A DNA stretch of 63,958 bases, counting the filler, from Kipferlia bialata (Eukaryota): NCBI GenBank assembly GCA_003568945.1. It is 5 parts of 5 records of this genome, joined end to end, with 100 filler letters (N's around TTAATTAATTAA, not from the genome) between each part and the next. Parts side by side here need not be neighbours in the genome. Positions count along the whole stretch, not along the records: positions 27,647 to 41,358 come from BDIP01000911.1; 4 more parts are not named here. One strand, written 5' to 3'. The position numbers and the translations under genes are program-made. Each line of letters starts with the position of its first letter. Within the stretch, counting starts at the first letter, position 1. Below are positions 31,301-32,579 of this stretch, piece after piece. The notes beneath the pieces are model-generated. The model did not search any database, was not told the origin of the DNA, and worked only from the letters and a program-made list of their open reading frames with translations.

Positions 31301-32331
31301 TGGTGTCTGACACCACAGACGCATTTGAGGTATGCTGATATATTCTAGTATATATATATAGTGGATACTTGGTTTCTCGCTTTGTGTTTGTTGGATATAT
31401 ATATCCTGTGTGGTGTCTGACACCACAGACGCCTTTGAGGTATGGTATATTTGTGTTATATATTAGTGGAGTGTAAGTGTTACATACACAATGTGTGTAT
31501 TTAGTATATATATGTAAATATATCCTGTGTGGTGTCTGACACCACTGATGCATTCGAGGTATAGTACTATATATATATACATTATATGAGTAGAAAATGT
31601 GGTATATACAACATAGTGTATTATGGAATACATATATCCTGTGTGGTGTCTGACACCACAGACGCCTTTGAGGTATAGTACACAATATATGTATACGTGT
31701 ATGTTATATAAGTAGAAAATTGTAGCATAAAATATATATTGCATTGTGGCAATAATATGTATCCTGTGTGGTGTCTAACACCACTGATGCATTCGAGGTA
31801 TGGTGTGCATGTATATCAATATCTCTCTCTATATATATATTTAGACTGTACATAACTATCAGGAGGCCCACGGCCTTGTCAAGTACATCCTGAACAACCT
31901 TATGATAATAGTATACCTTCGCCATGTCTAACTATACATATATATATATTCATATCCATTCATATTATTCTTTACTACTTACTTTACCTTACTGTTAGGA
32001 GGCCCACGGCCTTGTCAAGTACATCCTGAACAAGCTGGACGTGACATCATTCACCATGTCTGAGTCCAAGCACGACCTGCTGTTCCCAGGCAGGGGGGCA
32101 GACATCTATGTGGAGGGCAAGGTACTTATATAGTAGATATAGCAGTATAGTATGTTGTGTATATGTATATGTATCTATGTATACGACCTGCTGTTCCCAG
32201 GCAGGGGGGCAGACATATACGTCGAGGGCAAGGTACATAGATATTCTAACACTATATTTCTCTCGTGTCGTATGTTATCATATACTCTCACTCTAGGGCC
32301 TCGTTGACCACGTGGGCGTCGTTTACCCCAA

Positions 32332-32371
<40 letters not shown>

Positions 32372-32579
32372 ATTATACTAACATAAGGGTCTAGTGGGAC
32401 ATGTTGGTGTTGTCCACCCCAAGTACTCTCTCTCTCTCTCTCTCTCTCTATTTATATATATATACTAACATCAGGGCCTTGTAGGACACGTTGGTGTTGT
32501 CCACCCCAAGTGGCTCATCAAGCATGGCATCACATACCCATGCTCCATCCTCGAGATGAACATCCAGACATTCGCATAA
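27735..32579 (+). CDS. FARSB: Cytosolic phenylalanyl-tRNA synthetase beta subunit, 5'-truncated
   Basis: Exons: [30 protein letters not shown] (B3/B4), [23 protein letters not shown] (B5), [64 protein letters not shown]...LEMNI, with TAA at 32577-32579. Confidence 0.96.
30731..31800 (+). repeat. Array of 10 copies (the exon end plus 9 intronic echoes) of ~40-bp TCCTGTGTGGTGTCTGACACCACAGACGCATTCGAG|GTAT
   Basis: Copies near 30731, 30812, 30934, 31117, 31200, 31290, 31400, 31519, 31634 and 31760, separated by 40-100 nt AT-rich spacers. An N gap at 31025-31085 may hide more. Confidence 0.95.

What the first reader, a model, noticed from the sequence alone, without database searches (positions are those of the whole stretch)
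32280..32510. Three successive acceptor-plus-exon-start versions of the last FARSB exon
Functional: GGC CTT GTA GGA CAC GTT GGT GTT GTC CAC CCC AAG. The echo at ~32388 (GGT CTA GTG GGA CAT ...) has 4 silent and 0 replacement changes. The echo at ~32297 has 5 silent codon changes and 2 replacements. Each echo keeps a branch point and AG, and both stop at the same point (CCCCAAGT, then ACTCTCT...). Divergence increases with distance from the exon. How the spliceosome skips these intact upstream acceptors is unexplained; the echo ends create AA|GTAC, a possible re-splicing donor.
Basis: partly seen in the sequence, partly recalled or inferred. Interest (0 to 1): 0.7.

Follow-up and report, generated by a model that had tools for sequence, protein, structure and literature searches.

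The report
Skipped exon-edge copies in protist introns
In this single-celled eukaryote over half of the introns examined hold short extra copies of the neighbouring exon's edge, which the one gene with RNA data splices out, and their mostly silent differences suggest they are likely leftover pieces of other alleles.

Summary
Real, and not special to this exon. Two 37-nt acceptor-plus-exon-start copies precede the last FARSB exon (4 silent/0 replacement; 6 silent/2 replacement codons). The protein is identical to a Kipferlia bialata record. A spliced contig goes from the first donor to the last acceptor with no mismatch, skipping both. Such echoes sit in 37 of 66 modelled introns; none spans a whole exon. 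The anatomy matches human CBS 844ins68 and the F7 intron-7 repeat. What is unexplained is the silent bias: 83 silent versus 49 replacement variants, a 69% per-copy silent share against about 40% for neutral copies. Echoes identical to the exon mostly have unrelated intron flanks, and differing echo acceptors still look like acceptors. Best reading (about 50%): splice-site-spanning tandem duplications, refreshed by out-of-register recombination with diverged alleles and tolerated because outer sites win. No second strain was available to test allele capture.

The parts
31999..32121 (+). Penultimate FARSB exon; its donor (GT 32122) is the one used
   Evidence: P0001 mapping; RNA-type contig piece 31997-32119
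32183..32234 (+). Donor-side echo: last 50 nt of the penultimate exon plus GT, 3 silent differences, skipped
   Evidence: (D6)
32287..32333 (+). Echo 1: branch-like CTCAC, TAG, 37 nt of exon start; 6 silent and 2 replacement codons, both at near-invariant residues
32334..32377 (+). Spacer with (CT)n tract; shared junction after exon nt 37
32378..32424 (+). Echo 2: CTAAC, weak AAG acceptor, 37 nt of exon start; 4 silent, 0 replacement
32425..32474 (+). Second (CT)n spacer and the real branch point and CAG acceptor
32475..32579 (+). Functional last FARSB coding exon (34 codons plus TAA)
   Evidence: contig piece 32473-32685 with 0 other letters
30770..31998 (+). FARSB intron with 9 scored donor echoes and 1 acceptor echo, removed whole in the spliced contig
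   Evidence: joint 30767-31997, skips 1229
27736..32579 (+). FARSB gene, 15 exons seen (5' part missing at a contig edge); 23 echoes

Best explanation
The echoes are partial copies of exon edges with their splice sites that the spliced FARSB contig skips, and they are likely pieces of other, diverged alleles left by out-of-register recombination. Steps: (1, shown) units of about 105-110 nt, some 30 nt of exon edge plus about 80 nt of intron, stand in tandem across splice sites. (2, shown for FARSB) the first donor and last acceptor are used, so the protein is unchanged; acceptor echoes are also weaker on average. (3, inferred) whole-exon copies and strong competing acceptors would be purged, leaving only one-sided copies. 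(4, inferred) in a very polymorphic population the short exons are the only alignable DNA between alleles; an echo pairs with the other allele's exon, and crossover or conversion refreshes it with a working allele's codons and intron end while keeping the old junction. (5, inferred) after capture the echo decays freely, as the two replacements in echo 1 suggest.
For: Geometry: 19 of 28 upstream echoes start AG + exon nt 1, 44 of 55 downstream echoes end exon end + GT, 0 of 83 span an exon; each echo adds about 105 nt of intron, r=0.91. Skipping: 10 joints listed plus the last one read from contig pieces all use outer sites, 6 of them across echo-bearing introns. Silent bias: 83 silent vs 49 replacement unique variants, 89 of 132 at third positions, omega-like 0.2, P=7e-8 against the 0.5 floor for a neutral copy; FARSB alone 25:11; shifted frames reverse it. 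Simulated neutral echoes passed through the same filter give 38-41% silent; observed 69%; one echo per family (42 families) median 66%, bootstrap 52-78%. Changes placed on the echo's own branch 13 silent:8 replacement, P=0.001. Of 15 echoes identical to the exon only 1 has a near-identical 30-nt intron flank and 11 are no better than background. 13 echo acceptors that differ at 4 or more of 10 positions still score as acceptors (1.3 vs -6.2 for interior AG). Silent differences fit one rate, pS 0.20 (chi2 89, df 75). Copies in a family mostly share a junction, 37/37 here. Echo 1's replacements hit G (19 of 20 homologs) and H (19 of 20), so it is not now under protein selection. Passages of PMC8516963: metamonads lack NHEJ, fornicates lost Rad51A and have two Dmc1 paralogs, key meiotic proteins are kept; Dmc1 is mismatch-tolerant (search listing only, PMC7809202).
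Against: No second strain: the metagenome scan gave only 26-48% identical relatives (25 loci), so no echo variant was seen as a working allele. The model needs silent diversity near 0.2 and outcrossing; neither is measured, PMC8516963 says sex has not been observed in metamonads, and no exon variants were listed in X1. The 7 echoes of gene model K2 show no bias (7:20; model not open in one frame, left out of the main count) and gene D gives 1:3. The predicted AT-ward skew of replacements is not significant (P=0.19). Junctions are not enriched for microsatellites (10 of 68 vs 9.5%, P=0.11). Four of the five counted gene models were drawn by hand under the outer-site rule and checked only by open frame. 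RNA evidence is one contig from one sample, and contigs drop rare forms.
Confidence: 0.5

Rival explanations
1. Echoes arise within one lineage and are kept coding-clean by second-order selection: annealing or gene conversion between echo and exon often turns echo sequence into real exon (a repair back-up or a conversion load).
For: Explains silent bias on echo branches and kept GT (48 of 55) and AG (23 of 28). NHEJ absent, single-strand annealing available (PMC8516963 passages). Conversion from the skipped CBS copy into working alleles has been proposed (PMC2630376 passages).
Against: Echo 1 carries replacements at near-invariant residues. Exchange frequent enough to select would also homogenise silent sites, yet pS is 0.20. 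Does not by itself give identical exon parts with unrelated flanks.
Confidence: 0.2
2. Plain neutral tandem duplication by slippage, with very fast intron turnover; the silent bias comes from the real exon's side or from my gene models.
For: Some echoes keep similar flanks (15 of 63 above the 95th background percentile; echo 2 is one). Introns are rich in short repeats. K2 and D show no bias.
Against: Simulation caps the silent share near 40%, observed 69%; holds in RNA-checked FARSB alone (P=4e-4) and with one echo per family.
Confidence: 0.13
3. Echoes are used in splicing: alternative acceptors, micro-exons, recursive re-splicing at AA|GTAC, or decoys that tune intron retention.
For: Donor echoes are as strong as real donors (27 of 55 equal or stronger, P=0.44); 11 of 28 acceptor echoes lie in the real range.
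Against: The spliced contig uses outer sites with 0 other letters. Echo acceptor use truncates the last 22 residues, which would not select for the codons. AA|GTAC is weak and out of frame. Unit lengths are even modulo 3 (26/27/27).
Confidence: 0.07
4. Assembly artefact: haplotypes or strains placed in tandem by a short-read assembler.
For: Silent bias with diverged introns is what alleles look like; the published assembly of the species is short-read from an enriched culture (PMC5874029 methods); the focal echoes are not bridged by a listed contig piece.
Against: Read-derived contigs hold echo and exon in one record at two other sites and several echoes in a row at others; no exon variants listed. 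In 8 of 8 introns with both kinds, donor echoes precede acceptor echoes, the reverse of a doubled bubble (inference).
Confidence: 0.05
5. [quoted passage not shown]
For: The echo end AA|GT and the exon's AAG are one base from forming a new intron; real junctions are rich in AG|G.
Against: That pairing deletes one base; the contig keeps the real codons. The known mechanism duplicates an exon-internal AG/GT (PMC2891723), whereas these copies span existing splice sites.
Confidence: 0.05

Closest known systems
Human CBS c.844_845ins68 (PMC7490669, PMC2630376; passages)
   Same: Duplication of the last 52 nt of intron 7 and first 16 nt of exon 8; the downstream acceptor is used, the upstream exon piece is spliced out even when it carries a harmful change; conversion from it has been proposed.
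   Different: One polymorphic locus, one extra copy about 96% identical. Here up to 9 copies per intron, 37 of 66 introns, often unrelated intron flanks and a strong silent bias.
Exon/intron-border minisatellites: F7 IVS7, LMNB2, PDGF, CBS IVS13 (PMC1557585; abstract and passages)
   Same: Arrays that repeat an exon end plus donor; the most upstream donor wins although downstream ones can work. Matches the donor-side echoes.
   Different: There the F7 pseudo-sites are identical repeats at a few loci; here the intron parts of units differ, both intron ends are affected, and exon parts differ mainly at silent sites.
Intron gain by tandem duplication (PMC2891723 passages; PMC3265369 abstract; PMC2395259 passages)
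   Same: Local tandem duplication involving splice signals.
   Different: Those create a new intron from an exon-internal proto-splice site or repeat whole intron-bearing units; echoes only lengthen an existing intron.
Mutually exclusive exons and recursive splice sites (recalled)
   Same: Duplicated exon sequence with silent divergence; splice sites inside introns.
   Different: No echo has both an acceptor and its donor (0 of 83), and the focal AG is not followed by GT in register.

Membership tests
Splice-site-spanning tandem duplication (CBS ins68 / F7 type) | Copy holds a splice site plus the adjoining exon edge, in direct orientation next to the source | tested here: met
Splice-site-spanning tandem duplication (CBS ins68 / F7 type) | Outermost site used, mRNA unchanged | tested here: met
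   one spliced contig, FARSB only
Splice-site-spanning tandem duplication (CBS ins68 / F7 type) | Intron part of the unit is a recognisable copy of the source flank | tested here: inconclusive
   Echo 2 yes (P=0.001), echo 1 no (P=0.16); 15 of 63 overall
Splice-site-spanning tandem duplication (CBS ins68 / F7 type) | Skipped site becomes active if the real one is destroyed | not testable with these tools
   needs a minigene
Mutually exclusive exons | Each copy is a whole exon with acceptor and donor | tested here: not met
   0 of 83 echoes span an exon
Mutually exclusive exons | Alternative copies appear in mRNA | tested here: inconclusive
   only the outer form is seen, but contigs drop rare forms
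Recursive splice site | AG immediately followed by GT, regenerating a donor with no exon added | tested here: not met
   AG is followed by GGC and GGT; the candidate GT lies 35 nt on
Intron gain by tandem duplication | Duplicated exon-internal AG/GT yields an in-register new intron | tested here: not met
   AA|GT with AAG| deletes one base; contig keeps real codons
Captured allele fragments | Divergence pattern of working coding sequence with different but valid intron ends | tested here: met
Captured allele fragments | Echo variants occur as working alleles in other isolates | not testable with these tools
   no close relative in the metagenome scan; both runs are one sample

The most novel reading that the evidence does not exclude
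This protist's introns are an archive of other alleles: frequent out-of-register recombination between highly diverged haplotypes leaves exon-edge fragments in most genes, so one genome records cryptic sex and very high population diversity, drives intron growth in ~105-nt steps, and offers thousands of natural tests of first-donor/last-acceptor choice by a reduced spliceosome.
Probability: 0.4. Interest if true: 0.8.

Novelty: new variant of a known kind. Interest (0 to 1): 0.64.

Why it matters
Skipped copies of splice junctions are known from a handful of human loci. Here they are a routine part of gene structure, account for much of intron length, and carry a coding-type signature that junk copies should not have. 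If they are captured alleles, a single genome gives evidence on sex and diversity in a group where sex has not been observed (PMC8516963). Either way they make splice-site choice directly measurable in an organism with about 125,000 introns (PMC5874029) and a reduced spliceosome with no snRNA candidates found (PMC6679479). They also mislead gene predictors, as my own attempt showed.

Tried and rejected
No whole genome is held, so all counts are for this window. No RNA holder is listed as such; X2 is a guessed RNA run, though it shows GT..AG joints absent from X1. X2 has no cover at 32197-32378 and 30923-31832; contigs show presence, not absence, so this is not used as evidence. RNA support for the other genes could not be obtained. 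An automatic gene predictor swallowed echoes as exons and was dropped. Exon definition as the skipping rule is only half supported: 0 strong donors in 1115 nt after strong acceptor echoes (3.5 expected, P=0.03), but acceptors before donor echoes are not depleted (8 in 4649 nt vs 12 in 7697) and 22 acceptor-donor pairs lie inside introns, 11 in an intron removed whole. Microsatellite-primed junctions: not enriched; repeat continuation into the echo 0.54 vs 0.31 nt, P=0.004, a small effect with a rough null. Bare insertion of exon pieces rejected because each echo brings about 80 nt of intron. Rows left out: 8 of 91 hits below score 13; 7 K2 echoes (with them, per-copy silent share 120 of 191 = 63%); the gene at about 17.4-19.1 kb and the copies at 11-310 were not modelled. 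ARAGORN found 0 tRNAs; Rfam gave nothing at family threshold for 32560-33200. Three look-ups of earlier findings returned nothing. Literature searches for this pattern in Kipferlia or protists (listings only) showed no description; the genome paper's main text has no occurrence of 'duplicat'. Supplements were not read and subscription journals are not covered.

Full report
Observation. The three copies are at 32297, 32388 and 32475. Both have a branch-like 5-mer and AG and both end after exon nt 37 before a CT tract. The exon is the last of FARSB. The one protein hit is 100% identical and labelled Kipferlia bialata by its source. The window is a join of five contigs with spacer gaps, and FARSB begins at a contig edge.

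Is it in the DNA and what is spliced. DNA run X1 holds 0.95 of the sampled words. Its contigs carry an echo and its own exon in one record at 28416-28587 and 29437-29860 and runs of echoes at 31414-31646 and 31648-31890; no listed piece spans the focal pair. X1 and X2 are one sample and may be the assembly's source. X2 has one 1454-nt spliced contig. Ten joints are listed, all GT..AG at outer sites; pieces 31997-32119 and 32473-32685 are adjacent in the record with 0 other letters, giving the last intron as 32122-32474. Six of these eleven introns hold echoes; record lengths fit the outer-site model for the other three introns too (my arithmetic on table 8). So the main transcript skips all echoes. 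Rare forms cannot be seen in contigs.

It is a general feature. Self-comparison showed 118 local repeat pairs. I modelled six genes or gene parts, 72 exons and 66 introns; FARSB from RNA and P0001, the others by hand, five open in one frame, K2 not. Exon-versus-intron scanning gave 91 hits in 134 tests against 10 in 432 controls. At score 13 or more there are 83 echoes in 37 of 66 introns, median 30 nt; 19 of 28 upstream ones begin AG + exon nt 1, 44 of 55 downstream ones end exon end + GT, none spans an exon. Echo-bearing introns have median 309 nt against 129, about 105 nt per echo, r=0.91; donor echoes precede acceptor echoes in 8 of 8 introns with both. This is the geometry of tandem duplication across a splice site.

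Why they are skipped. Donor echoes are as strong as real donors (27 of 55 equal or stronger), so position decides, as in F7 IVS7 (PMC1557585, abstract and passages). Acceptor echoes are weaker on average (P=0.002; 6 of 28 equal or stronger); here 9.1 and 4.8 against 10.4. Exon definition is supported on the acceptor side only. The proposed AA|GTAC donor outranks only 3 of 66 real donors and would frameshift. Using either echo acceptor gives a stop after 26 or 29 codons and loses the last 22 residues. CBS 844ins68 is the direct precedent for the acceptor side (passages of PMC7490669 and PMC2630376).

The silent bias. A dead copy of an exon under purifying selection should show omega of at least 0.5. 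In 76 echoes (K2 excluded) there are 83 silent and 49 replacement unique variants, 89 of 132 at third positions, omega-like 0.2, P=7e-8; FARSB alone 25:11; shifted frames reverse the pattern; K2 shows 7:20 with an unreliable model. Simulated neutral echoes under the same filter give 38-41% silent against 69% observed per copy. One echo per family gives a median of 66%, bootstrap 52-78%; by gene 38:11, 36:18, 34:19, 3:0, 1:3. Changes assigned to an echo's own branch are 13:8 (polarity assumes the more diverged echo is older).

The flanks. A recent duplicate should match in exon and intron alike. Of 15 echoes identical in the exon part, 1 has a near-identical 30-nt flank and 11 are at background. 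Yet 13 echo acceptors differing at 4 or more of 10 positions still score as acceptors (1.3 vs -6.2), and differing donors are modestly donor-like (P=0.02). Silent differences fit one rate of 0.20 per site (copies are not independent and very old ones are missed). Copies often share a junction. Echo 1's replacements hit residues kept in 19 of 20 homologs each.

Mechanism. Shown: tandem units across splice sites, outer-site splicing in FARSB, coding-type divergence, alternative valid intron ends. Inferred: after a first duplication, the echo mispairs with the working exon of a diverged allele, the only alignable DNA nearby; crossover or conversion brings in that allele's codons and intron end, keeps the junction, and can add copies; then the echo decays. 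Context from PMC8516963 (passages): no NHEJ in metamonads, Rad51A lost and two Dmc1 paralogs in fornicates, meiotic genes kept, sex not observed; species-level tables are in supplements I did not read. I put this at 0.5. Selection on echoes as recombination back-ups gets 0.2, neutral duplication 0.13, a splicing role 0.07, artefact and intron gain 0.05 each. The deciding test, a second isolate, was not available.

Results against. No heterozygous exon sites were listed; two gene models lack the bias; the AT-ward skew of replacements (P=0.19) and microsatellite junctions (P=0.11) are not significant.

Novelty. The anatomy is known from single human loci; the density and the silent bias were not found in seven searches of the held library (listings only) or in the genome paper's main text (PMC5874029, passages and methods). 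Also seen: PMC6679479 passages, PMC2891723 passages, PMC2395259 passages, PMC3265369 abstract, Dmc1 papers as listings. Mutually exclusive exons, recursive sites and EJC-type NMD are cited from recall. Verdict: new variant of a known kind, interest 0.64.

Noticed in passing
window 46475-55166 and 55267-63958: A 100% identical 8692-nt inverted pair on either side of a contig spacer, holding a voltage-gated chloride channel ORF at 53284-54003; redundant contig or very recent duplication.
   Followed up: no
window 13730-13829, 27547-27646, 41359-41458, 55167-55266: Artificial N-spacer-N linkers: the window is five joined contigs, so neighbours across them are not real neighbours.
   Followed up: yes
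window 30770-31998: One FARSB intron with 9 scored copies of the same exon end, falling into a few sets of linked silent changes; an N gap lies inside.
   Followed up: partly
window 32567-32663: 22-nt tandem repeat that begins in the last FARSB codons and runs into the 3' UTR; perhaps an echo of the stop region.
   Followed up: no
window 32760-32930: tRNA-like arms by eye; ARAGORN and Rfam found nothing.
   Followed up: partly
window 16805-13955 (-) and 39606-40754 (+): Intron-rich kinesin gene with 4 scored echoes, and a long choline kinase ORF.
   Followed up: partly
all modelled introns: Branch-like 5-mer lies 3-5 nt before the AG in 60 of 66 introns and G precedes GT in 63 of 66: a fused branch/acceptor signal.
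   Followed up: partly
window 17400-19100 (+): Unmodelled gene with three copies of an exon-like piece around 17930-18100.
   Followed up: no
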